Origin: a virus
Length of the DNA stretch: 64,000 nucleotides
Reading direction: 5' to 3' (one strand)
Virus record (IMG/VR): IMGVR_UViG_3300020166_000010
In this document: positions 2,942 through 53,696 of the stretch, piece by piece
Layout of the letters: each line of letters starts with the position of its first letter
How positions within the stretch are numbered: position 1 is the stretch's first letter
Program-made: the position numbers and the translations under genes
The notes under the pieces: generated by a model
What the model was told of the DNA's origin: nothing
What the model saw: the letters and a program-made list of their open reading frames with translations, nothing else
Database searches by the model: none

Positions 2942-3400
2942 TTATAGGGCCTCTACCTCAACTGGCTGGTTCATAACAAAAGCTTTACTTGCCCAGGTTT
3001 TACTATTAACTGCCTTATACTGGTCACTATTATATAGGTTCGTGTTATACCATAATCCGTTAATAGTTCCAACTTCTAAGCCAGCCATTATAGCTTCATC
3101 CATTAGGAGGATCTTATTTCCTTTTTTCGCGAACACTGTAAAGTAATTATCAGATCCGAATGGCTTATACTCTACTGTATGTAAGGCTCCTTTCTTATAT
3201 GCGTTTAATACTATTGAAGGATTATCATATAATCTCTGATCGTCAAAATCTCTAGCATCGTTACAGGTCATATAACCAGCTCTACACTTTGTTATAAAAC
3301 GGAATTTACCCGGTTGGGCTTCGTAGTAGTCGTTCTTAATAATGTTGATAGCCTGGATTCCAGTAACGTTGATAATGTCTTTGTTTTTTAATTCGTGCAT
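2942..3400 (-). CDS. early hypothetical protein
   Basis: 152-aa ORF behind early promoter cassette. Confidence 0.8.
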   Translation of the reverse strand: MHELKNKDIINVTGIQAINIIKNDYYEAQPGKFRFITKCRAGYMTCNDARDFDDQRLYDNPSIVLNAYKKGALHTVEYKPFGSDNYFTVFAKKGNKILLMDEAIMAGLEVGTINGLWYNTNLYNSDQYKAVNSKTWASKAFVMNQPVEVEAL

Positions 3401-3423
3401 GGTGTGGTGTTTAAGTGTTAGTA

Positions 3424-3517
3424 TTAATTATATAGTAAATATAACACTTATATTTGATATAAAAAAACTTTTGTGCATTTATTTTTAGTTGAGGTCCTAT
3501 TTATAATGATTATAAAT
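3424..3517 (-). promoter_or_regulatory. early promoter cassette (leftward) with ATTTATAATnATTATAAAT palindrome
   Basis: Near-identical to cassette at 13411-13507. Confidence 0.8.
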
Positions 3518-3590
3518 TAGGAAAGTTTTCACCCTAGATTTTTTTATATGAAACTAATTGCTTATATTTACTATATAATAATTAAAACAA
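3499..3590 (+). promoter_or_regulatory. early promoter cassette (rightward), shares palindrome 3499-3517
   Basis: Palindrome + AAAGTTTTCACCCTAGATTTTTTTATAT + TATATTTACTATA. Confidence 0.8.
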
Positions 3591-3597
3591 CTACTAC

Positions 3598-3951
3598 ATG
3601 AATATCAAAATCACCGCAGACGAAGAAAGAGTTATCAAATATGCACTCGCAGACTATACTAATAACTTAGTTGGTAAGGGAATTCTATATAATACCGCTG
3701 TTGGTATCTTAAATAAGATTAACGATGCTGGTATTGTGAAGGCAGCGAGAACACCTAAGGTGCTGGTTCAGAAGCAATATATGTTCTCATTCGAGAATGG
3801 CGGATGGAACACAGTGTGGGCTAAAACACTACCTGGTGCTAAGCGTCAAGCCTTATTAGAGTATAAGGATTCTGACTTAAATGTTCGATTAGATAGTGTT
3901 CACTTAGCTACTAAGAAAGGATTAGATTCGGCAATGTCCTTATTCTACTAG
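3598..3951 (+). CDS. early hypothetical protein
   Basis: 117-aa ORF behind early promoter. Confidence 0.8.
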   Translation: MNIKITADEERVIKYALADYTNNLVGKGILYNTAVGILNKINDAGIVKAARTPKVLVQKQYMFSFENGGWNTVWAKTLPGAKRQALLEYKDSDLNVRLDSVHLATKKGLDSAMSLFY

Positions 3952-3960
3952 GGAACCCTT

Positions 3961-4045
3961 ATTTATAATCATTATAAATTAAGAAAGTTTTCACCCTAGA
4001 TTTTTTTATATCAATAATTAGTGTTATATTTAACTATAATTAAAA
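3961..4045 (+). promoter_or_regulatory. early promoter cassette with palindrome 3961-3979
   Basis: Repeat of cassette. Confidence 0.8.
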
Positions 4046-4056
4046 ACGTAATCGTT

Positions 4057-4269
4057 ATGACAAATTTCAAAAACTTATCAATTTACATCTTAGTGATTTT
4101 AGCTGGTGTAGCTATTGCTGCCTTTATTATCCCAGCTGGTATCAAACTATTTTTTAGTGGTTTACTATGGATGATGAATAATCCTGCAACAGGGTTGGTA
4201 ATCTCTATTACATTCTTAATCGGATGTTTTGTTGGTAATTTTGAAACAAAGTCTAATAAATCAGTATAA
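4057..4269 (+). CDS. small two-TM membrane protein (start revised to ATG 4057)
   Basis: Two hydrophobic segments; the GTG at 4021 lies inside the promoter. Confidence 0.75.
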   Translation: MTNFKNLSIYILVILAGVAIAAFIIPAGIKLFFSGLLWMMNNPATGLVISITFLIGCFVGNFETKSNKSV

Positions 4270-4289
4270 TAATAAATCAAACGAACATT

Positions 4290-5426
4290 ATGAGCATTCA
4301 AACTTTATCACAAACCGCGGTAGCAACAAGTAAACAAGAGAGCATCAACGCTCAATCTTTACGCCGCACCCTTCCTTTCCGAGACATTACAATGATCGAC
4401 GAGACAACCATCGAGTATAAAGGAACTCGTATCCCAATTACCAAGCAAGCTTTTAAATCCTTACTATCTCTAGTAGGTATGAGCCAGTCGTTCGCAGACA
4501 AATTCTCTAAGCTGTTTAACAAAGAGACTAAAGCGCAATTCATTAATACTATGAAAAACGCAATGGCATCTAACGCAGGTAAACTTAGCAACGTTACATT
4601 GGTTCTAAATCCAATTTCGAAAGCTGTGATCTTATTTACTAAAGAAGACAAGCTGCAAATCTCAAACGATCAAATGATCCAAGTTGCAGAGAACATGATC
4701 TCAGATAGTTCAATGGGAGTATCTAGATGGACTACGGATCCAACAACAGGTATTATCACAATCGACGCTCATAACCCTAAGGCTGAGTTTGAGATCTTAG
4801 GATTAAGTGATGAGGTCTTTACTGGAGGAGTTACATTCCGTAATAGTCCACTAAGAGGATTTGAAGTTATGCCATACGTAAATCGCCAATGGTGTACTAA
4901 TGGTCTAACAACAGCTATGGCACAAGAAGCATACCAACTACATTCTTTAGATAATAAGAGTATGGAAAGCTTTTTCGAAAACATGCAAGGTTTAAGACGT
5001 AATAACTACGCTCCTGAAGGATTTGCTGATCGAGTTCGCCAAGCTAACAACACACCTGCTTCGCTACATGAAATGTCTTTTGCACATAACTTAATTTCTA
5101 AGCATGCTGGTGAAAGAGCAGAACAATGGGTACCTCTACAAGAGAACCTCAACGAATATAATAAAGCCGGATTTGATAAATTAACTAACGATCAAATGAA
5201 GATGGCTAAAACTAACCAATCGCTTTGGTCAGTAATTAATGGAGTTACACACTTTAGTAGTCATGGTAAAGGTATCATCGACACTAACATGCAACCTCAT
5301 AATGAAGCTGATATCCAAACACGTATTGGAAACCTATTAGGCAAAAAGAGTTTTGATCACGAAAACACTATGCCAAACCCTTTTAGTAAGGAACAGCTTC
5401 AACAGACTGGAGCTCTTCTGAACTAA
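4290..5426 (+). CDS. DUF932-like protein
   Basis: 378 aa; FRNS...PYVNRQWCTNGL resembles the R-x-(V/W)-C-x-N-G motif of DUF932; SLWSVINGVT C-terminal motif. Confidence 0.6.
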   Translation: MSIQTLSQTAVATSKQESINAQSLRRTLPFRDITMIDETTIEYKGTRIPITKQAFKSLLSLVGMSQSFADKFSKLFNKETKAQFINTMKNAMASNAGKLSNVTLVLNPISKAVILFTKEDKLQISNDQMIQVAENMISDSSMGVSRWTTDPTTGIITIDAHNPKAEFEILGLSDEVFTGGVTFRNSPLRGFEVMPYVNRQWCTNGLTTAMAQEAYQLHSLDNKSMESFFENMQGLRRNNYAPEGFADRVRQANNTPASLHEMSFAHNLISKHAGERAEQWVPLQENLNEYNKAGFDKLTNDQMKMAKTNQSLWSVINGVTHFSSHGKGIIDTNMQPHNEADIQTRIGNLLGKKSFDHENTMPNPFSKEQLQQTGALLN

Positions 5427-5454
5427 TGTTTAGTTTGATTTTAATTATTATTAC

Positions 5455-5485
5455 AAAAGGCAGGCGTTGTTTCCTGCCTTTTTTT
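5455..5485 (+). terminator. Rho-independent terminator
   Basis: AAAAGGCAGG-CGTTGTTT-CCTGCCTTTTTTT. Confidence 0.85.
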
Positions 5486-5509
5486 ATACACCTCGGTCAG
5501 GGGGCCCTT

Positions 5510-5595
5510 ATTTATAATGATTATAAATTACAAAAGTTTTCACCCTAGATTTTTTTATATCAATAAAAAGTGTTATATTTAATTATAATTAAAAA
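5510..5595 (+). promoter_or_regulatory. early promoter cassette with palindrome 5510-5528
   Basis: Repeat of cassette. Confidence 0.8.
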
Positions 5596-5605
5596 ACAAA
5601 CAAAC

Positions 5606-5890
5606 ATGACTTATTCAAAAATCGTTTCCGCTATCAACAATGCTAACCTTTCAGTAGAAGAACTTTCTAAGCTGAATTCTTTCGTGGTTGATACTATTAA
5701 ATTAAAACGCAAAATGAACGGCGCTGTTATTAAGCAATCTCTATCTAGAGGTTCAATGGTAATGGTTGATCACCCTGCACACAAGAACTCTACGTTCGAG
5801 GTATTAGAAGTTCGTAGAACTAAAGCAACTATCAAAGATAGTCAAGGTCGCAGAATGAATGCACCTCTATCTATGTTGATCCCAATGTAA
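5606..5890 (+). CDS. early hypothetical protein with SH3/KOW-like C-terminus (start revised to 5606)
   Basis: GSMVMVDH...FEVLEVRRTKATI beta-barrel pattern. Confidence 0.75.
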   Translation: MTYSKIVSAINNANLSVEELSKLNSFVVDTIKLKRKMNGAVIKQSLSRGSMVMVDHPAHKNSTFEVLEVRRTKATIKDSQGRRMNAPLSMLIPM

Positions 5891-5910
5891 ATTGTCAACA
5901 ACCCGATTGC

Positions 5911-5984
5911 GGACTTATAGCTCAGCTGGTTAGAGCAGCGCACTCATAATGCGAAGGTCACAGGTTCGAACCCTGTTAGGTCCA
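5911..5984 (+). tRNA. tRNA with CAT anticodon (probably Ile2/lysidine type, otherwise Met)
   Basis: GGACTTA/TAGGTCC acceptor, TAGCTCAG D arm, CT-CAT-AA loop, GGTTCGAACC T arm. Confidence 0.9.
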
Positions 5985-5990
5985 CCCAGA

Positions 5991-6070
5991 ATTGTTAATA
6001 ACTTTTGAAAATAAGTTCACTAAAGTTTTCATATCCCACTAAAAAGGTTTATATTTACATATAACATTAA
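5991..6070 (+). promoter_or_regulatory. early promoter variant with TGTTAATAA upstream box
   Basis: TATATTTACATATAA core; same upstream box as 12873 and 59549 cassettes. Confidence 0.7.
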
Positions 6071-6081
6071 AACACCACGTA

Positions 6082-7167
6082 ATGAATCACTACACTATTA
6101 AGAAAACCAAAAACACATATACCCTAACTGAGGTACAATCAGGAACAACTCTAAACATTGGATCCACACATCCTAAATTTAACTATGTCGCTAAAGAAGA
6201 TTCTAAAGGATCTCGTATTATTAATATCAATGGCGACAAGTTCACCTCATCTAAAGATTATAGAGGTCACTATAAGAAGTCTACCCAAGCTCAAAAGCCA
6301 GCTAAGCCTCTTAATATTACCCTAACCAAGTTAGATGATTTAAATATTAATGCCAACTTATTCGTACCTATAGAGACCAATACAGTCTTTGACAAATTCG
6401 CATCTACTGCAGGTGGTATTATGCCAGGTACAAACATCATGGCGGCCGGAGCCCCAGGTGTTGGTAAAACTACGGTCCTATTAGATCTATTAAGTACTGC
6501 ACATAAGAGTGGTAAGAAGGTCCTATTCATCTCAGCTGAAATGTCTCAGATAGATATGGCCCGCTACTTACAACGCTTTCCTCACTGGGGTCAGTTGCCG
6601 ATCTTATTCCTAGCAGACTATGTGGATGAATGTCCAAAGACTGTAATCGAACAAGTCTTAAATGGAGGTTGGGATTTGGTCCTAACTGATAGCTACACTG
6701 AAGTTAACGACACCGTAAAAGAAGCTTGTAACCTAACCCGTGGTAAAGTTGAGAAATGGTTCCTAGACCTAATGATCTCAAATAACAAAGGTGTTAACAA
6801 GCCCGGAATCTACACAACCTTTATTACCATCTTGCAATTATCTAAAGGAGGTCAATTCGTCGGATCTAACAAACTAAAACACATGACCACGAGCATGATG
6901 AGCTTGGACTGGGAAGGTGGAGAAAACGCAGGTCGTAGATACATGGAATTCTCTAAAAACCGAGTAGGTGCAGTAAACAAAAAACTTTACTTTTCTTTAG
7001 AAGGCGGAGTAAGCTTTGACGAAGCCCGATACGCTAGGGATCTATTTAACGACGAGTTGGTATCTACAGAACGCAAGCAATTAGCGACGGAAGCAGATGC
7101 CTTCGACAAGTTATTCGGATTCAGTGAAGTAGATGCCGAAGACTTAGAAGCTCATATCGAAATATAA
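6082..7167 (+). CDS. RadA/Sms-like (RecA-fold) ATPase lacking Zn finger and Lon-like domain
   Basis: GGIMPG...GAPGVGKT Walker A, VLFISAEMS, LVLTDS, KGGQFVGSNKLKH, FSKNRVG. Confidence 0.8.
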   Translation: MNHYTIKKTKNTYTLTEVQSGTTLNIGSTHPKFNYVAKEDSKGSRIININGDKFTSSKDYRGHYKKSTQAQKPAKPLNITLTKLDDLNINANLFVPIETNTVFDKFASTAGGIMPGTNIMAAGAPGVGKTTVLLDLLSTAHKSGKKVLFISAEMSQIDMARYLQRFPHWGQLPILFLADYVDECPKTVIEQVLNGGWDLVLTDSYTEVNDTVKEACNLTRGKVEKWFLDLMISNNKGVNKPGIYTTFITILQLSKGGQFVGSNKLKHMTTSMMSLDWEGGENAGRRYMEFSKNRVGAVNKKLYFSLEGGVSFDEARYARDLFNDELVSTERKQLATEADAFDKLFGFSEVDAEDLEAHIEI

Positions 7168-7193
7168 GGGTCCTATTAGGATTCCTAAGCCTT

Positions 7194-7222
7194 CCTCCCG
7201 GTTATGTGGTGTTTCCGGGAGG
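7194..7222 (+). other. GC-rich 3' UTR hairpin whose loop is antisense to the radA-like leader
   Basis: CCTCCCGG-TTATGTGGTGTTT-CCGGGAGG. Confidence 0.8.
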
Positions 7223-7783
7223 TTTGGTGTATTTGGAGCATTGGGGCACCTGTATATCCTCGGACCGGTCATGGTAAAAAACGCTCCTCCGGTGTGAGCC
7301 AATTGGCGTTGGGGTTTAAGGTTCCTACAGGGACTTTACTTGGATGCTATATTTAGGGATTACTTGGGAATACCCTTGGATGGCTAGGAGAATCCTTACA
7401 AGCCTATCTAGCTTTCTTATATCTCTATTAGGTTATTATAGGAGGATGGAGTTTTAAGATCTTATATACCTATACCTATATCTCTATTACTAGGATCCGT
7501 ATTACTTGGATAGTTGTTTGCCTTATCTTGCTTGTCTCTTCTTAGATCTCTTATATCTTTCTTTCTTTTCTTATTCTTCTTGTTGGGATTCTTATTCTTA
7601 TCTCTTCTTTGTTATCTATTATGATTGATTCTTTTGGTCACGTGCGAGGGTCCATTTTACAAGAATCTTTGCACGCTCGGGTGGTTTGTAGTGTGGTCGG
7701 TCAAAAGGATTGATATTCTACAGGTTTTTAGGATCGGGTTCTTAAGGAGTGAGCCTATATATACCTCTTCTTTTTGTCACCTT

Positions 7784-7872
7784 ATTTGGAATGATTATAA
7801 ATTACAAAAGTTTTCACCCTAGATTTTTTTATATCAATAATTAGTGTTATATTTACTATATAATAATTAAAA
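7784..7872 (+). promoter_or_regulatory. early promoter cassette with degenerate palindrome 7784-7802
   Basis: ATTTGGAATGATTATAAAT + cassette. Confidence 0.8.
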
Positions 7873-7883
7873 CAACTACACTC

Positions 7884-8261
7884 ATGCCTTACATTACTAA
7901 AGATCAAGTTTCTCAAAAAAGAAAAGAATTAAAAGCTGCCTTACCTGACTATAAGCTATCTATTACTACTGAACATTATTCTGGTATTAAGGTTGCTATC
8001 ATGGCAGGTCCTACTGATTTTGGAACTGAATACTCTCAACTAAATCCTCATCATGATTATCGAGGAGAAACTTGGAACCGCTATACTGAAGAATACGATT
8101 CTAACCCTCCTATCCAAGATGTTCTAGATATTATTATGCCTATTCTAAATGAAGGCAAAGGAGAGGGTCATGAAGATGGAGATTACGGTATGATTCCTGA
8201 TTATTATACTTGGGTTCATATTGGTAAATGGGATAAAGCTTATGAAATTAAAACTAAATAA
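7884..8261 (+). CDS. LPD29-like early protein
   Basis: ELKAALPDYKLSITTEHYSGIKVAI and C-terminal D-rich/YY-x-V-x-IGKW pattern. Confidence 0.55.
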   Translation: MPYITKDQVSQKRKELKAALPDYKLSITTEHYSGIKVAIMAGPTDFGTEYSQLNPHHDYRGETWNRYTEEYDSNPPIQDVLDIIMPILNEGKGEGHEDGDYGMIPDYYTWVHIGKWDKAYEIKTK

Positions 8262-8791: not shown

Positions 8792-9850
8792 ATGAAAATT
8801 AAATTTATTATAATCGCATTTTTTGTAGCAGCTACATGTAATGCACAGAAAACCCTTGTATCTGACATCACAGATGTAGATCTAAGTAATACAGAGCAAT
8901 CAGGATATGTTAATTGGGATTTCACCAATAATACAACCGGATATGCCTGGACCTGGGGAGCACCTGGAATGCTAGTCTATGGAGATGCGCCTGAAATGTG
9001 CTTGGACATAGAAGCTGAAATTAAAAACATATCTCACGTATGGGGAGCTGGTATCTCTATTGGAGTAGATGAATCCTCAACAAACAGTGAACTAAAGTAT
9101 AATGGCATTAATAACTATTATTTATCAGTAGAAGACGATGTTGTTGGATTATTTAGAGGAACCAATAACACACAAGAAGATTTCATGGCTGATACACTAG
9201 CATACGTCGGTGTGACAATTGATCAAACTGAATGGTATAAATTAAGATTAAAAATAGAAGCAGATACGATATATGGATATGTTAACGATGTTCTATACAT
9301 TAACCATAAGGTAGATAGTATACAAAAGAACGGTAAGTTTGCTATAGTATCTTCTAATAGTGAAAATACATATAAGAATATAAAAGCAAGATATCACAAA
9401 GATCCATACTATATTAGTAGTGATACTATTGTAGAATTTGTAAGTGATGTTAATCACCCAGAATGGAATAACTTACCTGTCACTCGATTAGATAGTGTTG
9501 AAACTGTAGTAGAAGCCGATGGATTAGATCATTTCATAAGCCATTATATACAATATAAAGAATCTGAATCAATTAATATAGGAGATGATGATTGTGATTG
9601 CATTTGCCCAGCAGTAACTACCCTATCGATATATCCAAATCCAGTATCTGAATATATTAACGTAAGTATACAACAGCCTGAAGGAACACTCAAGGTTTAT
9701 AGCATGCATGGATCATCTGTTAAATCCTATGATTTAAAATATGGAATTAATAGAATAGATATGACAAGATATCCAATAGGACATTATTTATTCAAAGTAG
9801 AATACGAAGGAAGAAAGGCATTAATAGAAAAGATAATAGTAACTCATTAA
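8792..9850 (+). CDS. secreted protein with T9SS type A C-terminal sorting domain
   Basis: Sec signal (CNA-Q), beta-sandwich core, C-terminal LSIYPNPVSEYINV...KVYSMHG...IDMTRYPIGHYLFKV...KIIV. Confidence 0.85.
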   Translation: MKIKFIIIAFFVAATCNAQKTLVSDITDVDLSNTEQSGYVNWDFTNNTTGYAWTWGAPGMLVYGDAPEMCLDIEAEIKNISHVWGAGISIGVDESSTNSELKYNGINNYYLSVEDDVVGLFRGTNNTQEDFMADTLAYVGVTIDQTEWYKLRLKIEADTIYGYVNDVLYINHKVDSIQKNGKFAIVSSNSENTYKNIKARYHKDPYYISSDTIVEFVSDVNHPEWNNLPVTRLDSVETVVEADGLDHFISHYIQYKESESINIGDDDCDCICPAVTTLSIYPNPVSEYINVSIQQPEGTLKVYSMHGSSVKSYDLKYGINRIDMTRYPIGHYLFKVEYEGRKALIEKIIVTH

Positions 9851-11225: not shown

Positions 11226-12755
11226 ATGAATTTTATAGAAGAGATCATCGAGAGTGGAGACACATCTAATTTAATGTTTAGATTTCCTCCAGAACCTAAT
11301 GGACACCTACACTTAGGACATGCCAAAGCAATTTGTCTTAATTTTGATTTAGCACACAAATATAAAACAGGGTGCAATCTTAGATTTGACGATACTAATC
11401 CATTGGCAGAGTCTACTGTATTTGCAGATTCTATCATGGAAGATGTTGCTTGGCTTGGATATAGACCTACCGAAGTCGAAGAAACTAGTAACTATTTTAA
11501 ATTTATACAAAGATGTGCTAGTCAATTGATTATACAAGGTGATGCATACATGGATGATTCAACATCCGAAGAGATTGCTGAATTAAAAGGAGATCTTGAA
11601 AATCCAGGATCCGATTCGCCATATCGCAATAGAACGATTGCAGAAAATTTAGAAGAATTTAGAAAGCTATGTGAAGGCAGTATCAAAACTGTTTTGAGAG
11701 CTAAAATCGACATGGCAGATCCTAATCTATTAATGAGAGATCCTGTTATCTATAGATCTATTGATGCCCCTCACCATAACACAGGCACGGACTTTAAAGC
11801 GTATCCTATGTATGATTTTGCACATCCTATTTCAGATTGGAAAGAAGACATCACACATTCATTATGTACTTTAGAATTTGAAGCGCATCGACCTTTTTAT
11901 AATTGGACTCTTGATAAATTATTCGATACTAGTGTCTTTGGTCCTAATCCTCGTCAAATTGAATTCTCAAGATTAAATGTACAAGGGTTTACTTTAAGTA
12001 AAAGATATTTAAAAGAACTTGTAGAAGAAGGAGTTGTTGATGGATGGGACGATCCTCGCATGCCAACATTGAAAGGATTAAAGCGTCGTGGATTTACTCC
12101 AGATGCTATTAGAAACTTTTGTGAAAAGGTTGGAATCTCTAAAAGAGAATCTCAAATTGAGAGATCTTTATTAGATGGATGTTTACGTGATGATTTAAAT
12201 AAGATTTCAGAACGCAGAATGGTAGTCAAAGATCCAATTAAACTAACAATTGTTGGTGATTTTAAACCAGGATTTGCTGCTCTTGAAAATAATCCAGAAT
12301 CATCTATAATATCAGCTCGTAAAGTAAATTACTCTGAACAATTCTGGATTGAACGAGAAGACTTTAGAGTAAGTGCCAATAAGAAATATAAAAGACTAAA
12401 ACTCGGAGATAATGTTAGACTAAAGGGTGTTTGTATTGTAAAGGCGGTTGATTACACTGAAATAGATGGTATAATCACTGAAGTGTTTTGTGAACATTAT
12501 CCTGATAGTTTTTCAGGAATGAAAACAGATGTAAAAGCGAAAGGAACAATACATTGGGTAAATAGAGATGAAGCAGTTGAAATTAAATTAAACCACTTTG
12601 ATGGATTAGATAAAGGAACAATTTCAGCGTTTGGAGAACCTTTATTGAGGCTAGAATACGAAAAACCAGTACAATTCGTTCGACATGGCTACTATATGAA
12701 AGATGGGGACAGTTGGAACCATTCAGTATCTTTAAAAAGTAGTTATAATGGGTGA
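11226..12755 (+). CDS. glnS: glutamine--tRNA ligase
   Basis: RFPPEPNGHLHLGHAKAI, CNLRFDDTNP, YPMYDFAH, ITHSLCTLEF, LSKR, GWDDPRMPT. Confidence 0.95.
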   Translation: MNFIEEIIESGDTSNLMFRFPPEPNGHLHLGHAKAICLNFDLAHKYKTGCNLRFDDTNPLAESTVFADSIMEDVAWLGYRPTEVEETSNYFKFIQRCASQLIIQGDAYMDDSTSEEIAELKGDLENPGSDSPYRNRTIAENLEEFRKLCEGSIKTVLRAKIDMADPNLLMRDPVIYRSIDAPHHNTGTDFKAYPMYDFAHPISDWKEDITHSLCTLEFEAHRPFYNWTLDKLFDTSVFGPNPRQIEFSRLNVQGFTLSKRYLKELVEEGVVDGWDDPRMPTLKGLKRRGFTPDAIRNFCEKVGISKRESQIERSLLDGCLRDDLNKISERRMVVKDPIKLTIVGDFKPGFAALENNPESSIISARKVNYSEQFWIEREDFRVSANKKYKRLKLGDNVRLKGVCIVKAVDYTEIDGIITEVFCEHYPDSFSGMKTDVKAKGTIHWVNRDEAVEIKLNHFDGLDKGTISAFGEPLLRLEYEKPVQFVRHGYYMKDGDSWNHSVSLKSSYNG

Positions 12756-19046: not shown

Positions 19047-22022
19047 TTACATTGGAAAACATCCTATATGTTGTAGCACCATAGTTATTGAATATCCTTT
19101 TCCTCCACCTGCTGAACCTGTTTTAACCCTAACGCTATAGTGATTATTTGTAGTAATTGCAATCCAATTACCCAAACCAGATGTAACCATTTTTTGGAAA
19201 CCTGGATGTGTATATGTATGTATCACTGTTACTGCATTTGCGCTATCATGTCTAATTAATTCAAATACACATCCTTCACCATTAGCAGTTTCACCATAAG
19301 ATGCACTAATACCCGTTATATAGTACCCTGATGAGAACCCTGTTGGAATCTGAACGAATGAATTAGATATATTTGCTGTTGTGTTTAGTGTACTGTATGC
19401 TGTTGGGTTTATTCCAATATATTCATAACATGTGTAACCTGTAAATTGAGATCCTTGATTTCCTTTTAATCCTTGAGCTCCTTTTGTTCCTTGGAATCCT
19501 TGGAAACCTTGTGTTCCAGTTCCTCCACCAGAACCTGTTTCTCCTTTTGTTCCTTGGAATCCTTGGAAACCTCTAATTCCTTGTAATCCTTGATCTCCTT
19601 TGGTTCCTTTTAATCCTTGGAAACCTCTAAGTCCTTGATCTCCTTTAATTCCTTGGAAACCTGCAACTCCTTGAAAACCTTGTTCTCCTTTATCTCCTTG
19701 GAATCCTTGATTTCCACTTCCACCATTAGATCCTTTAGATCCTTGGAAACCTTGATCTCCTTTGGTTCCTTTTAATCCTTGGAAACCTCTAGCTCCTTGG
19801 AAACCTTGATCTCCTTTAGTTCCTTTAGCTCCTTGGAAACCTTGATCTCCTTTATCTCCTTGGAATCCAGTTCCTCCACCAGAACCAGTAGATCCTTGGA
19901 AACCTTGGTCTCCTTTAGTTCCTTTAGCTCCTTGGAAACCTTGGTCTCCTTTAGTTCCTTTTAATCCTTGGAATCCGGTGTCTCCTTGGTCTCCCTTAGT
20001 TCCTTTAGCTCCTTGGAAACCTTGATCTCCTTTGTCTCCTTTTTTTCCTTGGAATCCTTGATCTCCTTTAGTTCCTTTAGCTCCTTGGAAACCTTGGTCT
20101 CCTTTAGTTCCTTTAGCTCCTTGGAATCCGGTGTCTCCTTGGTCTCCCTTAGTTCCTTTATCTCCTTGATCTCCTTTAGTTCCTTTAGCTCCTTGGAAAC
20201 CTTGATCTCCTTGGAATCCAGTTCCTCCACTAGAACCAGTAGATCCTTGGAAACCTTGATCTCCTTTAGTTCCTTTAGCTCCTTGGAAACCTTGATCTCC
20301 TTTGTCTCCTTTTTTTCCTTGGAATCCTTGGTCTCCTTTAAGACCTTGGAATCCTGTGTCTCCTTGGTCTCCTTTAGTTCCTTTAGCTCCTTGGAATCCG
20401 GTGTCTCCTTGGTCTCCTTTGGTTCCTTTTAATCCTTGATCTCCTTTATCTCCTTGGAACCCTTGGTCTCCCTTAGTTCCTTTAGCTCCTTGGAATCCTG
20501 TGTCTCCTTGGTCTCCCTTAGTTCCTTTATCTCCTTGGAATCCCTGATCTCCTTTATCTCCTTGGAATCCAGTTCCTCCACCAGAACCTGTAGATCCTTG
20601 GACTCCCGTGTCTCCTTGGTCTCCTTTAGTTCCTTTAGCTCCTTGGAATCCTGTATCTCCTTGATCTCCTTTAGTTCCTTGGAATCCTGTGTCTCCTTGG
20701 AATCCTGTAGCTCCTTGGAACCCTTGGTCTCCTTTAGAACCTATAGTTCCTTGGAAACCTTTATATCCTTGGAAACCTTGATCTCCTTTAATACCCTGAT
20801 CTCCTTTATCTCCTTGGAATCCGGTTCCTCCACCAGAGCCCGTTTCTCCTTGAGTTCCTTTATCTCCTTGGAAACCTTGATCTCCTTGGAAACCTTGATC
20901 TCCTTTAGTTCCTTTAGCTCCTTGGAAACCTTGATCTCCTTTGTCTCCTTTTTTTCCTTGGAATCCTTGATCTCCTTGATCTCCGGCTCCTCCAGTAGAA
21001 CCTATAGTTCCTTGGAAACCTTTATATCCTTGGAAACCTTGATCTCCTTTAATACCTTGATCTCCTTGGAAACCCTGATCTCCTTGGAATCCTGTTCCTC
21101 CGCCAGAACCTGTGTCTCCTTGAGTTCCTTTATCTCCTTGGAAACCTTTATCTCCTTGGAAACCTTGATCTCCCTTGTCTCCTTTTTTTCCTTGGAATCC
21201 TTGATCTCCGGCTCCTCCAGTAGAACCTATAGTTCCTTGGAAACCTTGATCGCCTTGGAATCCTTGGAATCCTTGGAAACCTTGATCTCCGGCTCCTCCA
21301 GTAGAACCTATAGTTCCTTGGAAACCTTGATCTCCTTTAGAACCTATAGTTCCTTGGAAACCTTTATATCCTTGGAAACCTTGATCTCCTTTATCTCCTT
21401 GGAAACCTTGTGTACCTTGGTCTCCTTGGTCTCCTTTATCTCCTTGGTCTCCTTTATCTCCTTGGAATCCTTGGTCTCCCTGGAATCCCTGGAATCCTTG
21501 GTCTCCCATATCTCCTTGGAATCCTTGGTCTCCCATATCTCCTTGGAATCCTTGGTCTCCCATATCTCCTTGGAATCCTTGGTCTCCCATATCTCCTTGG
21601 AATCCTTGGTCTCCCATATCTCCCTGGTCTCCTTTATCTCCTTGGAATCCCTGGTCTCCCTGGAATCCTTGGTCTCCCTGGAATCCTTGGTCTCCCATAT
21701 CTCCTTGGTCTCCTTGGTCTCCTTTATCTCCCTGGAATCCTTGATCACCAGCTATACCCTGGAATCCTTGGTCTCCCATATCTCCCTGGTCTCCTTTATC
21801 TCCTTGAAATCCTTGGTCTCCTTTATCTCCTTGGTCTCCTTTATCTCCCTGGAATCCTTGATCACCAGCTATACCCTGGAATCCTTGGTCTCCCATATCT
21901 CCCTGGTCTCCTTTATCTCCCTGGAATCCTTGGTCTCCCATATCTCCCTGGTCTCCTTTATCTCCTTGGAATCCTTGGTCTCCCTGGTCTCCTTTATCTC
22001 CCTGGAATCCTTGGTCTCCCAT
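19047..22022 (-). CDS. collagen-like fibre, C-terminal part (continuation of 22039-24882 across frameshift)
   Basis: Continuous Gly-X-Y (GDQ/GFQ/GDK/GTK) then about 130-aa globular C-terminal head. Confidence 0.85.
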   Translation of the reverse strand: MGDQGFQGDKGDQGDQGFQGDKGDQGDMGDQGFQGDKGDQGDMGDQGFQGIAGDQGFQGDKGDQGDKGDQGFQGDKGDQGDMGDQGFQGIAGDQGFQGDKGDQGDQGDMGDQGFQGDQGFQGDQGFQGDKGDQGDMGDQGFQGDMGDQGFQGDMGDQGFQGDMGDQGFQGDMGDQGFQGFQGDQGFQGDKGDQGDKGDQGDQGTQGFQGDKGDQGFQGYKGFQGTIGSKGDQGFQGTIGSTGGAGDQGFQGFQGFQGDQGFQGTIGSTGGAGDQGFQGKKGDKGDQGFQGDKGFQGDKGTQGDTGSGGGTGFQGDQGFQGDQGIKGDQGFQGYKGFQGTIGSTGGAGDQGDQGFQGKKGDKGDQGFQGAKGTKGDQGFQGDQGFQGDKGTQGETGSGGGTGFQGDKGDQGIKGDQGFQGYKGFQGTIGSKGDQGFQGATGFQGDTGFQGTKGDQGDTGFQGAKGTKGDQGDTGVQGSTGSGGGTGFQGDKGDQGFQGDKGTKGDQGDTGFQGAKGTKGDQGFQGDKGDQGLKGTKGDQGDTGFQGAKGTKGDQGDTGFQGLKGDQGFQGKKGDKGDQGFQGAKGTKGDQGFQGSTGSSGGTGFQGDQGFQGAKGTKGDQGDKGTKGDQGDTGFQGAKGTKGDQGFQGAKGTKGDQGFQGKKGDKGDQGFQGAKGTKGDQGDTGFQGLKGTKGDQGFQGAKGTKGDQGFQGSTGSGGGTGFQGDKGDQGFQGAKGTKGDQGFQGARGFQGLKGTKGDQGFQGSKGSNGGSGNQGFQGDKGEQGFQGVAGFQGIKGDQGLRGFQGLKGTKGDQGLQGIRGFQGFQGTKGETGSGGGTGTQGFQGFQGTKGAQGLKGNQGSQFTGYTCYEYIGINPTAYSTLNTTANISNSFVQIPTGFSSGYYITGISASYGETANGEGCVFELIRHDSANAVTVIHTYTHPGFQKMVTSGLGNWIAITTNNHYSVRVKTGSAGGGKGYSITMVLQHIGCFPM

Positions 22023-29416: not shown

Positions 29417-29443
29417 TTATACAAAAGTATCAACTATTGTTTC
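29417..29443 (-). promoter_or_regulatory. class II promoter GAAAC-N17-TATAA
   Basis: Exact motif upstream of thyA operon. Confidence 0.7.
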
Positions 29444-32672: not shown

Positions 32673-35600
32673 TTATCCACAATATAGATATCCATATACT
32701 CCTTCAGCCTTTCCTTCAGCATCAAATGCACAATCTTCCATACATTTACCTACTGTATATGATGTGATAGTTTGTCTTTCTTCATACTGTGGAGTTCCAT
32801 CTTCAAATCCAATTATTACCCATTCGGTTGGTTGTTTCATAACATATCCTGGCGTATCTGAAGAACATACTAAATCCCCTACAAGAACAAGTCCATTTTG
32901 ATCACATACTTTCATACCCGTTAATCTGCCTTCACGTGAATCTCCAATAGACGCTACTCTCCAAATAGTTTTAATATCCCTATCAGTTACTGGTATTTTA
33001 TTTCCTAGTGAATCTCTGTAGTGATGTGGTTTTTCTGAAGTATCTTTTCCGTTTGGTAAAAATTTATCTAATGGGCTATCCTTTATAGTAAAATCAAGAC
33101 CTTGCCATAATATACCTACGATAGCAGTATCTTGTGCTGACGATGCTTTAACTAATTCGTTGTTTTCATCTAACTTAACCAAATCTCCAACTTCTATTTG
33201 TGTATCATTTCTTTTAATATACGTATGGGATGCTGTGAAAGTTGGCGTAAATCCACTATCTTTGTCGCTAGGGGCTTCGCTAATAGTTGCACCGTTATCG
33301 TTGTCATATGTGACGTCATCATATCGCCCTGCATAACTCTCTGCTATAGTTCGAAAATCAGTTCTAAAATCATCAAATCTTTGATCTCCGAATTTTACTT
33401 CGGGTTTAAATCTAAGTTGTCTATATCCATTCTCGTCTAATATAGGGGCATCACTAGGATCTAACTCAAAATCAAATATAGTACTTGCAAGTCCACCTGC
33501 AATTGTTGCGCCTCCTTCAATGTCCATATCACCTCTAAACTTCGCGTTACCATCTGGATCTATATAGAAATTCTTAGCATTAATAGCACCAGCGTCTAGG
33601 TTAATACCCATACCTGCGAAAGAATACGTATCCCAAAGTGTTGAACTCGAAGTAACATCAGTTGCTGTCATTTCTTCTTCAGTTAATCCTGCACCTGTAC
33701 CTGATGCCAAAGACTGGGCAGAAACCGGCATTGCAAAATCGCCGCTCACTAATCTTCCTGTTGTTATCTTTCCACCGGATATTGTCGTTGTCGTTGTTAA
33801 GAATTGACTAACATCTGGTTCCGGACCTTGGAAACCTCTTGGTCCTGTAGGTCCAGTATCTCCTTGTAATGATTTAGCAAAAGTTTGTTCCTTTATAAAC
33901 GTAAAACTTTTACCATTAAGAAGAGTTCTTCCAGTAATGGTATATGTAATCTTAGCGGTATTATCAGTCATTTTACTATGATCTGTAAACAGTCTATCAC
34001 CGCCAAAATTAGCAGAACCTCCAACCGTGATTGAAGTTCCAACTGCAGTCACTTTATATTTTCCAACGCCAGTACCTACCCCATCAGATGTTAATTTGTT
34101 AAGACCCTCATACACGCTAACGCCTGTTCCTGACCCAAAATAATCTACAGTACCATCCGTTTGCGTTGGTAAGGTGTGAGCCTCGTTAGTAAGAATCACA
34201 GTCATACCATCAGCACCTGGAGTACCGGGTGCACCGTCAGCTCCTGCTTTAACTCCAGCAATCGTTATTTGGTCTCTTGCTAAAATAGCTGATGTTTTAC
34301 TGCCCTCTCTTATTTCTACCTCAATAGTTTCGGGCATATTGCTATAACTCGATTGAGGTGTATATGTATATGTTCGAGTTGTACTGTGTTGTACTGATAC
34401 GTCATTTTTATAGAAATTATAATACACCGTCCCAGTTGTGTTAAATGCAGTTGCTGCAATTTGTGTACTGGTTGGTAATGGAGTTGTTCCAGATGTATTA
34501 TATGCAAATACTTGACTCGGTGTTGCTAAAGAAACTGCTCTAGCGCTTACTCCAGCTGAACCAGTTGAACCTTGAGCACCTGGAAGGCCTACATCACCCT
34601 GTGCTCCTTTAGTTCCAGTAGTTCCCTGTGCTCCTTTAGTTCCAGTAGTTCCCTGTGATCCAGTTGGCCCTGCTGGCCCTGCCGGCCCTGCTGTAAAACT
34701 AACTTCCCCGTTAAATGCTACTTGACCGTTTTTTATTGAGAATGGAGTTAATAATGTACCATTTGCATCTTCACTATTTACTTTGAAACTATCTGCTTTA
34801 AATGCTATTGTACTACCAGTTTCATCTGCTCCTAATTTCATACCCGCAACGACTGGAACACCATTACTATCACTACTTACTTCTAATGTATATTGTGCGT
34901 TTACTTTACCAGTAAGAGCATTTATATCTGCTGATTGCTGGGTAGTTACTCCAGCGGTTTTATTATCTAACGCTGCTATTAAACTTGTTGTTGAGGTAAC
35001 AGTAGCTTGATTTGCAGTTGCAACTGCACTGTCTATTGTTGTTTTAAGGGCTGAATTTGTGCTTACACCGGTAATAGATCCATCTGTAGGATTTATTGTA
35101 TATTCTGCTTCTAGCGTATCTACTCTATTAACCGCAGCTGTGTTTAATGTTGTTAGTGCTGTTTCAACAGTATCTATAGCTGCATTGGTTGCAACAAGAT
35201 CGGTTGAGACGCTAGTTTCTATCGTATCTATTCTGCGTCCAAGTGCAGAGTCTGCATTAGCAAATGCCGTTTCAGCCGTACCTATAGCTGCATTAGTTGC
35301 AACAAGATCGGTTGAGACGCTAGTTTCTATCGAATCTATTCTGCTTCCAAGGGCAGCGTCTGCTGTCGCGATCGTTGTTTCAACCGTGCTAATATCGGCA
35401 TTGGTTGCAACGAGATTGGTTGAAACTCCTGCTTCTAAAGTATCTATTCTACCTGCAAGGGCGAGATCTGCTGTTGTTAGTGTTGTTTCAGCCGTACCTA
35501 TAGCTGCATTAGTTGCAACAAGATTGGTTGAAACACTAGTTTCTATCGTATCTATTCTACCTGCAAGGGCTAGGTCTGCTGTTGCGAATGCTATTTCAGC

Positions 35601-39483: not shown

Positions 39484-40548
39484 TTATTTATTGTTAAATT
39501 TATTAATTTTATCAGGTGTTAGTTCCTTTAAAAATTCAACGAATAATTTAATACAGGATTTAACATCTTTCTTATGGGCCATTTCCACAGTAGTGTGCAT
39601 ATATTTTAATGGAGTTGCTAAGATCGCAGTTGGTGTATTCTCCATAAAGAATGCTACCGTATCATTACCCATTGATCCAACTGTTAATTGAACCGGTATC
39701 TTTTTGTCCTTTGCAATTTCCCTTAACATCTTATTAATACCTCTGTGATTTTGCGAAGTATACTCTAGACATGGACCAGCTCCGCCTTTATTATCTCCAT
39801 CTTTTGCTTTGTCTATTTTTGGAGTATTAGTATTATGACAAACATCATGTACTAGCGCAAGATCTGCTTGTAAGTGTTTAGCAATCTTTTTGGCACCATG
39901 TAGGCCAACTTCTTCTTGGACTGAATTTACTACATATAAATCATAAGGTAATTCTATTCCTTTCTCTGTGATCTCTCTAAGAGCTTCAGCAATGATATAT
40001 CCACCAATCTTGTTATCTAATGATCTACCAACATAATAGTCTCCCATCTCGTGGAATTGATCGTCAAATGTAATTAAGTTTCCAACTTCAACGCCAGCTT
40101 TATTGACTGCTTTTTTATCTTTTAATCCAGTATCAACCCATAATTCATGTTGATCATATCCTGTTTCGACATATGATTTTCTAGTATGAATCGCAGGCCA
40201 TCCGAAAACTCCCTTAACTTTAGTTCCACTATGAGTATGTATCATGACAGTTTTACTTGGTGCAATCATATTATCAGATCCACCGTGTCTTTTAACTCTA
40301 ATATATCCATCTGCTTCGATGTTTGTAATAATCCAAGCAATCTCGTCACAGTGTGCTTCAATAACTACTTTAGTTGAGTTTTCTGTTTTAGATCTTTTAA
40401 TACCATAGCTTGTTCCATACGCATCAGTGTGTATTACATCAGTAAATTTCTCAATGTAATCTCTCCATATTGATTGACCTTCTTCCTCCTGTCCAACCGG
40501 AGCGTATGCATTTAAATAATTGTATAAAAATTTCTTATTTTCTTTCAT
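39484..40548 (-). CDS. M42 family metallo-aminopeptidase
   Basis: IEAHCDEI, RSLDNKIGG, SVQEEVGLHGA, PLKYMHT. Confidence 0.92.
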   Translation of the reverse strand: MKENKKFLYNYLNAYAPVGQEEEGQSIWRDYIEKFTDVIHTDAYGTSYGIKRSKTENSTKVVIEAHCDEIAWIITNIEADGYIRVKRHGGSDNMIAPSKTVMIHTHSGTKVKGVFGWPAIHTRKSYVETGYDQHELWVDTGLKDKKAVNKAGVEVGNLITFDDQFHEMGDYYVGRSLDNKIGGYIIAEALREITEKGIELPYDLYVVNSVQEEVGLHGAKKIAKHLQADLALVHDVCHNTNTPKIDKAKDGDNKGGAGPCLEYTSQNHRGINKMLREIAKDKKIPVQLTVGSMGNDTVAFFMENTPTAILATPLKYMHTTVEMAHKKDVKSCIKLFVEFLKELTPDKINKFNNK

Positions 40549-43504: not shown

Positions 43505-43572
43505 AATATTGTTTTAATTTATATATGTTATATTAAAAAAAATAAAATAGTTTCATGAAAAACTATGTGTAA

Positions 43573-51882: not shown

Positions 51883-51959
51883 TGGTGAACCAGGTAGGAT
51901 TCGAACCTACGACCGTCGCCTTAGAAGGGCGATGCTCTATCCAGCTGAGCTACTAGTCC
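51883..51959 (-). tRNA. tRNA-Arg(TCT)
   Basis: Full cloverleaf, CT-TCT-AA, encoded CCA. Confidence 0.95.
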
Positions 51960-51968
51960 AATAAAATC

Positions 51969-52064
51969 GAGGGGCTTCACTCCTTTAGCGCGCTTGCAGC
52001 ATCAGAGTCCCAACCAAAGCTATCCGTCGATAGTTCCCTTTGGATTTTATGTTTAACTCCCCTC
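51969..52064 (-). ncRNA. unclassified structured RNA between tRNA-Glu and tRNA-Arg
   Basis: GAGGGG/CCCCTC closing stem; CCAAAG..CTATC-GACG-GATAG-CTTTGG; ACTCT/GGAGT. Confidence 0.65.
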
Positions 52065-52066
52065 TT

Positions 52067-52141
52067 TGGTAGCCCGTAAGAGAATCGAACTCTTATTTTA
52101 CGGATGAAAACCGCATGTCCTAACCGTTAGACGAACGGGCC
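52067..52141 (-). tRNA. tRNA-Glu(TTC)
   Basis: Full cloverleaf, TT-TTC-AT, encoded CCA. Confidence 0.95.
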
Positions 52142-52189
52142 AAATTTGAATTCCAGTATGTAAAGAACATTTAATTCGTTATTCTTTAT

Positions 52190-52216
52190 TTATACTTGAA
52201 TTTTAAATAAAGTTTC
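52190..52216 (-). promoter_or_regulatory. class II promoter for tRNA-Glu/ncRNA/tRNA-Arg, followed by boxA-like GTTCTTTA
   Basis: GAAAC-N17-TATAA. Confidence 0.75.
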
Positions 52217-52298
52217 CAAAAGATTACACAATATCTAACATAGTTCAAATCTCTTAGCTACCCAACCATATTTATCTGACACTATTTTAATTATAATA

Positions 52299-53045: not shown

Positions 53046-53074
53046 AATTGTTTATTTTTATATATTTAAATATA

Positions 53075-53686: not shown

Positions 53687-53696
53687 TATATTGTTT

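What the first reader, a model, noticed from the sequence alone, without database searches (positions are those of the whole stretch)
4264..5454. DUF932-like gene is bracketed by complementary 5' leader and 3' trailer
Seen: leader 4264-4290 GTATAATAATAAATCAAACGAACATTA (ending on the A of ATG). The reverse complement of 5424-5454, starting at the stop codon, is GTAATAATAATTAAAATCAAACTAAACATTA. All 27 leader nt can pair with small bulges, and the single substitution is a G:U, which favours RNA-level pairing. Known: fold-back inhibition in type I toxin mRNAs (hok fbi) silences full-length transcripts; Bacteroidota initiation depends on unstructured A-rich leaders, not SD. Inference: the mRNA is translated only while nascent and shuts itself off once the 3' end is made, giving a pulse of early protein.
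Basis: partly seen in the sequence, partly recalled or inferred. Interest (0 to 1): 0.8.

Follow-up and report, generated by a model that had tools for sequence, protein, structure and literature searches.

The report
Phage mRNA tail masks own start
In a large marine phage that probably infects Bacteroidota, the 31 bases after a gene's stop codon are a conserved complement of the 27 bases before its start codon, so the finished mRNA can fold back over its own ribosome landing site; the neighbouring gene does the same with a terminator loop, which points to an undescribed self-limiting control of early phage genes.

Summary
Leader 4264-4290 and trailer 5424-5454 form 27 base pairs (26 Watson-Crick, one G:U, three small bulges), running from the A of the ATG to the T of the stop codon. 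The duplex energy is -19.9 kcal/mol. It is the best of 80 leader/trailer pairs in the window, and the trailer is the best + strand partner of this leader in all 64 kb.

Whole-mRNA folds put the helix in the minimum-energy and centroid structures. In metagenomic homologues of 72-99% protein identity the pairing is kept. The trailer core stays 80-100% identical where four-fold sites are saturated, a few changes are compensated, and G:U outnumbers A:C 15 to 3.

The neighbouring RecA/KaiC-like gene shows the same principle. In 29 distinct homologous loci its terminator loop is antisense to its own leader, with 24 different stems and a matched leader/loop change.

The best reading is an RNA-level 3'UTR anti-leader that occludes an SD-less start region. 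The "pulse" kinetics are untested. The gene has its own conserved promoter inside the leader arm. The DUF932 assignment is weak. The scan had noted both cases before, on the same DNA only.

The parts
3950..4056 (+). Early-type promoter module (one of four ~130-nt copies) that drives the small ORF and would give read-through transcripts carrying the whole leader arm
   Evidence: Direct repeat family at 3488, 3950, 5499 and 7773. It contains a TATATTTA box followed by TATAAT and an A-rich leader.
4057..4269 (+). Small ORF of 70 aa, predicted to have two transmembrane helices. Its stop codon TAA 4267-4269 lies inside the leader arm.
   Evidence: ORF list. Conserved in L033, L038, L042 and L047, but replaced by other upstream genes in L003, L052 and L060. 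No Pfam or PHROG hit.
4243..4270 (+). The gene's own promoter, GAAAC-N17-TATAAT. The TATAAT (4265-4270) is the outer helix of the leader arm.
   Evidence: Best sigma-70-like match in the region, 11 of 12. The motif class GAAAC-N16-19-TATAA occurs 17 times against 1.7 expected, oriented with the genes. The 17-nt spacing is invariant upstream of the gene in 14 of 15 homologues.
4264..4290 (+). Leader arm of the long-range helix, ending on the A of the start codon
   Evidence: Pair probabilities are 0.7-1.0 for most positions.
4290..5426 (+). Gene of 378 aa, distantly DUF932-like, function unknown
   Evidence: phrog_1362 E=7e-7. PF06067 E=0.11, below the cut-off. AlphaFold2 pLDDT 78. ESM Atlas TM 0.74 to a viral cluster in which 15% of members carry DUF932. 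No PDB match.
5424..5454 (+). Trailer arm (anti-leader), starting with the stop codon. The core 5427-5441 is under purifying selection.
   Evidence: The core is 12-15 of 15 identical in homologues whose four-fold sites are only 45-50% identical. GTTTG is invariant in 23 sequences.
5455..5486 (+). Intrinsic terminator: stem 5459-5464 with 5473-5478, 8-nt loop, then a T run. It fixes the mRNA 3' end just after the trailer arm.
   Evidence: (I11). The stem covaries and the loop is conserved in homologues.
6070..6082 (+). Second case: leader of the RecA/KaiC-like gene (6082-7167), 13 nt ending on the A of its ATG
7194..7222 (+). Second case: 3' hairpin of the RecA/KaiC-like gene. The 13-nt loop (7202-7214) is antisense to 6070-6082, 13 of 13 with one G:U.
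   Evidence: E -22.4, z-sum -9.4; loop to leader -16.7. Conserved with 24 different stems in homologues.

Best explanation
The trailer is a cis-acting RNA anti-leader. Once the mRNA is complete and ended by the terminator at 5455-5486, the 31 nt that begin at the stop codon pair with the 14-27 nt that end at the start codon. The coding region becomes one large loop, and the A-rich, SD-less ribosome landing site is buried in a double strand.

Bacteroidota-type initiation depends on an unstructured leader. The folded mRNA should therefore initiate poorly, and it may also be a substrate for a double-strand RNase. Output would be limited to ribosomes that load before the 3' end exists, or while translating ribosomes keep the helix open.

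Two transcript classes are expected:
- read-through RNA from the upstream early promoter carries the full 27-nt arm (-20 kcal/mol);
- RNA from the gene's own GAAAC-N17-TATAAT promoter carries about 14 nt (-12 kcal/mol).

Shown: the complementarity, its non-randomness, its conservation with some co-variation, its predicted dominance in the fold, and a parallel design in the next gene. Inferred: that both arms lie on one RNA, that pairing lowers translation, and the timing.
For: 1. The duplex is far beyond chance: shuffles 1 of 5000 and 0 of 5000, the best of 80 cognate pairs, and the best + strand site in 64 kb.
2. The helix is in the minimum-energy and centroid folds of the 1229-nt and 1448-nt mRNAs, with pair probabilities of 0.7-1.0. 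It is also there for a transcript starting at 4277, and in 6 of 7 homologue mRNAs tested within the clade that shows pairing.
3. Conservation: homologues of 72-99% protein identity keep duplexes of -15 to -20 kcal/mol. The trailer core is 80-100% identical where four-fold sites are saturated at 0.45-0.50.
4. Co-evolution: cognate pairs beat swapped ones (197 of 20000 permutations for 9 sequences, 3 of 20000 for 15). On the alignment, 74% of cells pair against 29-43% for slid partners, and 1 of 2000 permutations reaches that value. There is a C-G to U-A change at 4286/5428 in two lineages.
5. Strand asymmetry: 15 G:U cells against 3 A:C cells, and no C in any trailer arm.
6. An independent second instance. 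With trailers extended to about 110 nt, only this gene and the RecA/KaiC-like gene stand out (z-sum -9.4 each, the next at -5.0). In 40 distinct loci the latter's leader/3'UTR cognate pairs beat permutations 0 of 20000, z=-4.8. Its terminator loop (core UGUGGUG) faces the leader ACACCAC through 24 different stems. One clade switched both sides together, to ACAUCCACA and AGUGGAUG.
7. Context: leaders are SD-less and 55% A. Experiments show that distal anti-RBS sequences pair with the RBS and repress in vivo (PMC12697547), and that a 3'UTR to 5'UTR pairing blocks initiation in icaR (PMC3868564).
Against: - No transcript ends, structure probing or expression data exist.
- Covariation in this gene is modest. 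Most pairs are simply conserved, and pairs with double changes are no more frequent than after permutation.
- L034 and L041 have uncompensated changes next to the start codon, and L038's helix is absent from its minimum-energy fold.
- The trait is absent from homologues at 69% identity or less, and weak in the ~70% clade, so it is not essential to the gene family.
- If the own promoter starts transcription near 4277, the outer 10 pairs exist only on read-through RNA.
- The helix is almost all A-U over a 1.1-kb span, and translating or terminating ribosomes would keep opening it.
- In L033 and L038 the trailer pairs better with the next gene's leader than with its own.
Confidence: 0.55

Rival explanations
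1. The 3'UTR works in trans. After the body of the mRNA decays, the stable tail (single-stranded anti-leader plus terminator hairpin, about 65 nt) persists as a 3'UTR-derived small RNA. It then pairs with the start regions of new copies of its own mRNA and of other early mRNAs that share the generic A-rich leader. This would give cumulative negative feedback, or an early-to-middle switch.
For: The trailer is also complementary to several promoter-proximal leaders: -16.2 for the next gene, and -13 to -15 for 63318, 3598, 7884 and 10798. In L033 and L038 the next gene's leader is the better partner, at -22.1 and -18.2. The layout, a seed followed by a terminator, is that of known 3'UTR-derived sRNAs (established knowledge).
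Against: The own leader is the only partner kept in all eight clade members: -13.8 to -19.9, against -9 to -22 for the downstream leader, which fails in L003 and L041. Changes specific to the own leader are mirrored in the trailer (L003, L038). Cis pairing has the advantage of local concentration. No processing site or internal promoter for a separate small RNA was found.
Confidence: 0.2
2. The pairing is protective or activating rather than repressive. A 5'-3' panhandle would shield the 5' end and leader from 5'-end-dependent or endonucleolytic decay, as in hbs. Or it would hold the stop codon beside the start codon so that terminating ribosomes, which must melt the inner helix, reload on the same mRNA.
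For: The helix begins exactly at the start and stop codons, so the two codons are juxtaposed. For a transcript starting near 4277 the very 5' end would be paired. In RecA-like homologues a linear 3' segment pairs with the 5'-most part of the leader. In hbs a 14-bp 5'/3'UTR interaction inhibits RNase Y cleavage (PMC5737220).
Against: The start codon and the whole landing site are inside the helix, which in SD-less systems is expected to inhibit initiation (PMC6847099, PMC12697547). The RecA-like loop lies 35 nt beyond its stop codon, out of reach of a terminating ribosome, so the reloading idea does not carry over.
Confidence: 0.13
3. The feature is at the DNA level. The trailer would be an inverted copy of the promoter/leader that serves as an antisense promoter, as paired protein-binding sites, or as terminal inverted repeats of a mobile gene cassette.
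For: The reverse complement of the trailer resembles the TATAAT-plus-leader part of the phage promoters. A GAAAC word also lies in the terminator loop upstream of it on the minus strand, and in L034 the spacing is exactly 17. The gene's upstream neighbour differs between phages, so the cassette has moved.
Against: - The antisense GAAAC-to-TATAA spacing is 13, 13, 17, 20, 15 or 21, or the motif is absent (window, L033, L042). Real promoters of this class keep 17.
- The moving unit includes the promoter outside the repeat, so the repeat is not the cassette boundary. There is no target-site duplication.
- No transposase-like or recombinase-like family was detected in the protein.
- G:U exceeds A:C 15 to 3, which a DNA repeat does not predict.
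- The parallel case in the next gene is a terminator loop with covarying stems, which is an RNA feature.
Confidence: 0.07
4. The match is a chance one between an A-rich leader and a T-rich trailer in an AT-rich genome.
For: Both arms are of low complexity. After correcting for about 80 genes, the window-only p value is only about 0.05.
Against: The best site in 64 kb falls exactly at the gene's own stop codon. The pairing is conserved beyond saturated synonymous divergence. The adjacent gene provides a second case.
Confidence: 0.02

Closest known systems
icaR mRNA of Staphylococcus aureus: 3'UTR to 5'UTR pairing (PMC3868564)
   Same: A motif in the 3'UTR of an mRNA pairs with the ribosome binding region of the same mRNA. 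In icaR this blocks the initiation complex and creates an RNase III substrate.
   Different: icaR uses a short UCCCC anti-SD motif within a ~390-nt 3'UTR of a bacterial regulator. Here there is no SD. The target is an A-rich leader plus the start codon, the duplex is 27 bp and starts at the stop codon, the 3'UTR is only ~65 nt, and the gene is a phage early/middle gene. The effect on translation or decay is untested here.
hok/Sok fold-back inhibition (fbi/tac) in type I toxin mRNAs (established knowledge; discussed in PMC9841398)
   Same: The extreme 3' end of a full-length mRNA pairs with its 5' end and keeps it translationally inert. Co-transcriptional folding and timing matter.
   Different: hok encodes a ~50-aa toxin and has an antisense Sok RNA, a mok reading frame and activation by 3' trimming. 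Here the protein is 378 aa, no conserved antisense promoter exists, and there is no evidence for 3' processing.
Bacillus subtilis hbs mRNA 5'/3'UTR interaction (PMC5737220)
   Same: A long-range pairing of about 14 bp between the two UTRs of one mRNA.
   Different: In hbs the pairing modulates RNase Y cleavage in the leader and stabilises the RNA. It does not cover the start codon.
Distal anti-RBS sequences in Bacillus subtilis mRNAs (PMC12697547)
   Same: Sequences hundreds of nucleotides downstream pair with the ribosome binding site in vivo, promote decay and block initiation.
   Different: In that work such sequences are generally selected against inside genes. Here an anti-start-region element is conserved, which argues for a selected function. 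The chemistry also differs: A-rich leader with U-rich trailer instead of SD with anti-SD.
Phage T4 early versus late transcripts with a sequestered start region (e, soc, I-TevI; recalled from the literature, not checked here)
   Same: Long read-through transcripts hide the start region in a helix, whereas transcripts that begin inside the helix lack one arm. Here the own promoter's TATAAT lies within the leader arm, so its transcripts lose the outer 10 pairs.
   Different: In T4 the helix is a local hairpin upstream of the gene. Here the partner is 1.1 kb away in the 3'UTR, and the shorter transcript is still predicted to pair.

Membership tests
mRNAs regulated by 5'UTR-3'UTR pairing in cis (icaR type) | The 3'UTR holds a segment complementary to the translation initiation region of the same gene, beyond chance | tested here: met
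mRNAs regulated by 5'UTR-3'UTR pairing in cis (icaR type) | Both arms lie on one transcript | not testable with these tools
   Only predicted: promoters at about 3990-4045 and at 4243-4270, and a terminator at 5455-5486. RNA data were unavailable.
mRNAs regulated by 5'UTR-3'UTR pairing in cis (icaR type) | The pairing is conserved or covaries in relatives | tested here: met
   Met, but the covariation is modest for this gene. It is strong for the neighbouring RecA-like gene.
mRNAs regulated by 5'UTR-3'UTR pairing in cis (icaR type) | The pairing blocks the initiation complex and/or makes an RNase III substrate | not testable with these tools
   Needs toeprinting, reporter assays and RNase III assays.
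mRNAs regulated by 5'UTR-3'UTR pairing in cis (icaR type) | The target is the Shine-Dalgarno sequence | tested here: not met
   There is no SD. The leader is A-rich, and 4 of 65 ORFs have an SD-like word.
hok/Sok-type fold-back inhibition | A small toxin ORF with a cis-encoded antisense RNA | tested here: not met
   The product is 378 aa. The antisense promoter-like words have no conserved spacing.
Pfam DUF932 (PF06067) | Score at or above the gathering threshold of 23 bits | tested here: not met
   12.7 bits, E=0.11. Only 2 of 20 homologues reach E of 0.01 or better, the best being 0.0023.
Pfam DUF932 (PF06067) | Same fold as family members | tested here: inconclusive
   The AlphaFold2 model matches an ESM Atlas viral cluster at TM 0.74, in which 15% of members carry PF06067. 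No solved structure matches.
Intrinsic (factor-independent) terminator | A G+C-rich hairpin followed by a T run directly after the trailer | tested here: met
   (I11). The stem covaries in homologues.
Phage promoter class GAAAC-N17-TATAA | The motif with 17-nt spacing lies 18-28 nt upstream of the ATG, and the class is enriched and co-oriented with genes | tested here: met
   17 sites against 1.7 expected. The spacing is conserved in 14 of 15 homologues. Activity as a promoter is not shown.
Mobile element bounded by terminal inverted repeats | The repeats mark the ends of the mobile unit, with a target-site duplication and an encoded transposase | tested here: not met
   The conserved unit extends beyond the repeat to the promoter. 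The flanks are not duplicated. No transposase family was found.

The most novel reading that the evidence does not exclude
Large marine Bacteroidota phages may use a general, addressable system. Each regulated early or middle mRNA would carry, in its short 3'UTR or in the loop of its own terminator, an antisense copy of its own SD-less start region. Finished transcripts would then silence themselves, in cis and perhaps in trans. That would give transcription-coupled, burst-limited expression without any protein repressor.
Probability: 0.25. Interest if true: 0.85.

Novelty: new variant of a known kind. Interest (0 to 1): 0.68.

Why it matters
Pairing between the two UTRs of one bacterial mRNA is known from only a handful of cases (icaR, hbs, hok), all in SD-using bacteria.

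Here the same principle appears in a phage of an SD-less host group, where an unstructured leader is the main determinant of initiation. It comes in two forms in adjacent genes: a linear trailer that starts at the stop codon, and a terminator loop. The second form is conserved with compensating changes in at least 29 distinct metagenomic loci.

If it is functional, this is a compact, protein-free way to limit or time early gene expression. It would also be a natural design rule for tunable expression in Bacteroidota, and a reason to annotate phage 3'UTRs and terminator loops as regulatory.

The idea is directly testable with a reporter plus compensatory mutations.

Tried and rejected
1. Antisense promoter in the trailer. 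GAAAC in the terminator loop plus a TATAAT-like word on the minus strand looked promising, but the spacing varies from 13 to 21, or the motif is missing, in homologues. Rejected.
2. Inverted-repeat mobile element. There is no duplication of the flanks, the promoter outside the repeat travels with the gene, and there is no transposase signature. Rejected.
3. Downstream gene's leader as the true partner. It is good in some loci but fails in L003 and L041, whereas the own leader never fails. Kept only within the trans rival.
4. The count of structure pairs on the 1236-column alignment. My hand-typed structure string had the wrong length twice. I computed the same kinds of counts in Python instead.
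5. fold_alignment of the RecA-like hairpins. MAFFT misaligned the divergent stems and no consensus came out. I replaced it with a motif-anchored stem/loop listing.
7. The INPHARED DNA search gave no match. The protein search gave one uncultured jumbo phage at 23% identity.
8. The PDB sequence and fold searches gave nothing significant. Weak Rad52 rows at E around 0.2 were ignored.
9. Rfam found nothing but a tRNA in 3400-7900.
10. Homologues at 69% identity or less, searched with 100-nt trailers, showed no convincing own-leader pairing.
Full report
WHAT IS THERE. The window is part of a large phage genome. It holds a block of + strand early and replication-type genes (3.5-14 kb) and a long block of - strand genes. 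It also holds 11 tRNA genes, an aminoacyl-tRNA synthetase, thymidylate synthase and a DNA ligase. No whole genome is held for it, and it has no DNA match among deposited phages. Near-identical contigs of 175 kb occur in marine viromes and metagenomes. A Bacteroidota host is likely for two reasons. One early protein carries a type IX secretion sorting domain (PF18962, E=2.9e-9). And start regions lack Shine-Dalgarno words (4 of 65 ORFs) and are 55% A.

The gene in question (4290-5426, 378 aa) follows a 70-aa two-helix membrane ORF (4057-4269) by 20 nt. It is followed by an intrinsic terminator (5455-5486) and then by the next copy of a ~130-nt early promoter module.

Leader 4264-4290 and trailer 5424-5454 pair over 27 positions (26 Watson-Crick and one G:U). 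There are three bulges on the trailer side. The innermost pair joins the A of the ATG to the T of the TAA. The duplex energy is -19.9 kcal/mol, against -6.2 +/- 2.1 for dinucleotide shuffles (1 of 5000, and 0 of 5000 when both arms are shuffled). Among 80 ORFs of the window it is the best own leader/trailer pair, and 4 of 6320 swapped pairs equal it. The leader's best partner anywhere on the + strand of the 64 kb is this trailer. In thermodynamic folds of the whole mRNA the helix is in the minimum-energy and centroid structures. This was tested for two forms, 1229 nt starting at the leader and 1448 nt starting at the upstream promoter. Most pair probabilities are 0.7-1.0.

IT IS CONSERVED AND UNDER SELECTION, IN ONE SUBCLADE. 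IMG/VR and metagenome scans gave 110 loci. Homologues with 82-99% protein identity, and one with 72%, keep leader/trailer duplexes of -15 to -20 kcal/mol. A ~70% clade keeps a weaker version of about 10 bp. Homologues at 69% or less have none, even with 100-nt trailers.

Where four-fold degenerate sites have fallen to 45-50% identity, which is saturation in this AT-rich DNA, the trailer core 5427-5441 is still 12-15 of 15 identical. The word GTTTG is invariant in all 23 aligned sequences. The trailer is therefore a functional non-coding element, not a decaying duplicate.

Own pairs beat swapped pairs (197 of 20000 permutations for nine sequences, 3 of 20000 for fifteen). On the alignment, 74% of cells pair, against 29-43% for partners slid by 1-3 columns, and only 1 of 2000 permutations reaches 74%. 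A true compensatory change (C-G to U-A at 4286/5428) is seen in L038 and L003. L003 rewrote both sides of the inner helix together. Non-Watson-Crick cells are G:U 15 times and A:C 3 times. That is the asymmetry expected for pairing of the sense RNA, not for a DNA repeat.

The covariation in this gene is nevertheless modest. Pairs with double changes are no more common than after permutation. L034 and L041 carry uncompensated changes near the start codon. The helix appears in the minimum-energy fold of 6 of the 7 homologues tested within the pairing clade, but not in that of L038.

A SECOND, STRONGER CASE NEXT DOOR. Exactly two of the 80 ORFs then stand out: this gene and the RecA/KaiC-like gene 6082-7167 (z-sum -9.4 each). 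The next, at -5.0, is a spurious ORF in the tRNA cluster. The 3' hairpin of that gene (7194-7222) presents a 13-nt loop that is antisense to 6070-6082, again ending on the A of the ATG.

In 40 distinct homologous loci, its own leader/3'UTR pairs beat all 20000 permutations (z=-4.8). In 29 of the 31 loci where I could anchor the hairpin (the other two had mis-assigned start codons), it persists through 24 different stem sequences, and its loop core UGUGGUG faces the leader word ACACCAC 2-6 nt before the AUG. In one clade both sides changed together, to ACAUCCACA and AGUGGAUG. Many loci add a linear 3' segment that mirrors the 5' part of the leader, and that segment changes with the leader. This is clearly an RNA-level design. 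It makes the same reading of the DUF932-like gene much more credible.

The gene has its own promoter. GAAAC-N17-TATAAT at 4243-4270 is the best sigma-70-like match in the region. It belongs to a class found 17 times in the window against 1.7 expected, always co-oriented with genes. It keeps its 17-nt spacing in 14 of 15 homologues, although the upstream neighbour gene differs between phages.

Its TATAAT is the outer part of the leader arm. If transcription starts about 7 nt downstream (near 4277), own-promoter RNA keeps only the inner ~14 nt. That part is still predicted to pair, at -12 kcal/mol with probabilities of 0.7-0.98. Read-through RNA from the early module carries all 27 nt. On such read-through RNA, ribosomes finishing the small ORF at 4267-4269 would open the helix. 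The transcription start site is not known. The conserved complementarity of the outer helix in all clade members suggests that RNA containing it matters.

MECHANISM. The best-supported reading is that the completed mRNA folds back and buries an SD-less, A-rich start region plus the start codon. This lowers initiation and may create a double-strand RNase site. That initiation in Flavobacterium is tuned by leader structure is established (PMC6847099). Distal anti-RBS sequences pair and repress in vivo (PMC12697547). A 3'UTR does this in icaR (PMC3868564).

Rivals:
- A stable 3' tail acting in trans on several generic leaders. The trailer pairs at -13 to -16 with other leaders in the window, and better with the next gene's leader than with its own in L033 and L038. 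But it fails in L003 and L041, where own-leader pairing is kept.
- A protective panhandle or a stop-to-start ribosome hand-over, by analogy with hbs (PMC5737220).
- DNA-level explanations. The antisense promoter is rejected on variable spacing. The inverted-repeat cassette is rejected on boundaries and flanks.
- Chance, rejected.

THE PROTEIN. 'DUF932-like' is only a distant resemblance:
- Pfam PF06067 gives E=0.11, below the threshold.
- Two of 20 homologues reach E of 0.01 or better.
- PHROG 1362, of unknown function, gives E=7e-7.
- The AlphaFold2 model (pLDDT 78) matches no solved structure.
- The model matches an ESM Atlas viral cluster at TM 0.74, in which 15% of members carry DUF932.
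The function remains unknown, and nothing suggests a toxin.

VERDICT. This is a real, selected RNA feature. It is a new variant of 5'UTR-3'UTR pairing, in a phage and in an SD-less translation system. It comes in two architectures in neighbouring genes. Its regulatory effect is unproven but directly testable.

Noticed in passing
window 3488-3617, 3950-4079, 5499-5628, 7773-7902 (shorter copies at 6008, 10724 and 13443; reverse copies near 3421, 48673, 53696 and 63921): Repeated early promoter modules. Each has a 19-bp palindrome (for example 3961-3979 and 5510-5528), a TATATTTA box, TATAAT and an A-rich leader. The palindrome looks like an operator shared by the early promoters.
   Followed up: partly
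window, 17 sites (for example 1169-1195 -, 29417-29443 -, 43528-43554 -, 52190-52216 -, 54458-54484 -): A promoter-like class GAAAC-N16-19-TATAA occurs 17 times against 1.7 expected. It is co-oriented with genes and lies 18-28 nt upstream of ATG codons. It probably marks the middle or late promoters of this phage.
   Followed up: partly
window 5465-5473 against 4243-4251: The loop of the terminator after the gene is conserved while its stem covaries in homologues. It contains GUUUC, the complement of the promoter's GAAAC (7 nt complementary in the window, 5-6 nt in relatives). This could be a further contact on read-through RNA, or chance.
   Followed up: partly
L043-L051 (about 70% identity clade), first 60 nt after the stop codon: These 3'UTRs hold a near-palindromic segment that repeats the leader end plus ATG of the window clade, a 10-nt stretch complementary to their own leader, and a terminator whose loop carries the same GUGGUG word as the RecA-like terminators.
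   Followed up: partly
window 5911-5986 (+) and 51883-57766 (-): A tRNA-Met gene sits alone between two early genes. Ten more tRNA genes cluster at 51.9-57.8 kb. ORFs called there (for example 56972-57160) are spurious.
   Followed up: no
window 7230-7770: About 550 nt without an ORF of 100 aa or more, after the RecA-like terminator. The first part is G-rich, then comes a long pyrimidine-rich run. Its function is unknown.
   Followed up: no
window 19444-22000 (-) and 34995-36806 (-): A 991-aa ORF is built largely of 9-nt-period collagen-like repeats. A 1968-aa ORF holds about thirteen 108-nt tandem repeats.
   Followed up: no
window 8792-9850, 11226-12755, 60597-62435, 39484-40548: Unusual cargo: a T9SS-sorted protein, a class I Glu/Gln-tRNA synthetase, a carbamoyltransferase and an M42 aminopeptidase (Pfam).
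   Followed up: partly
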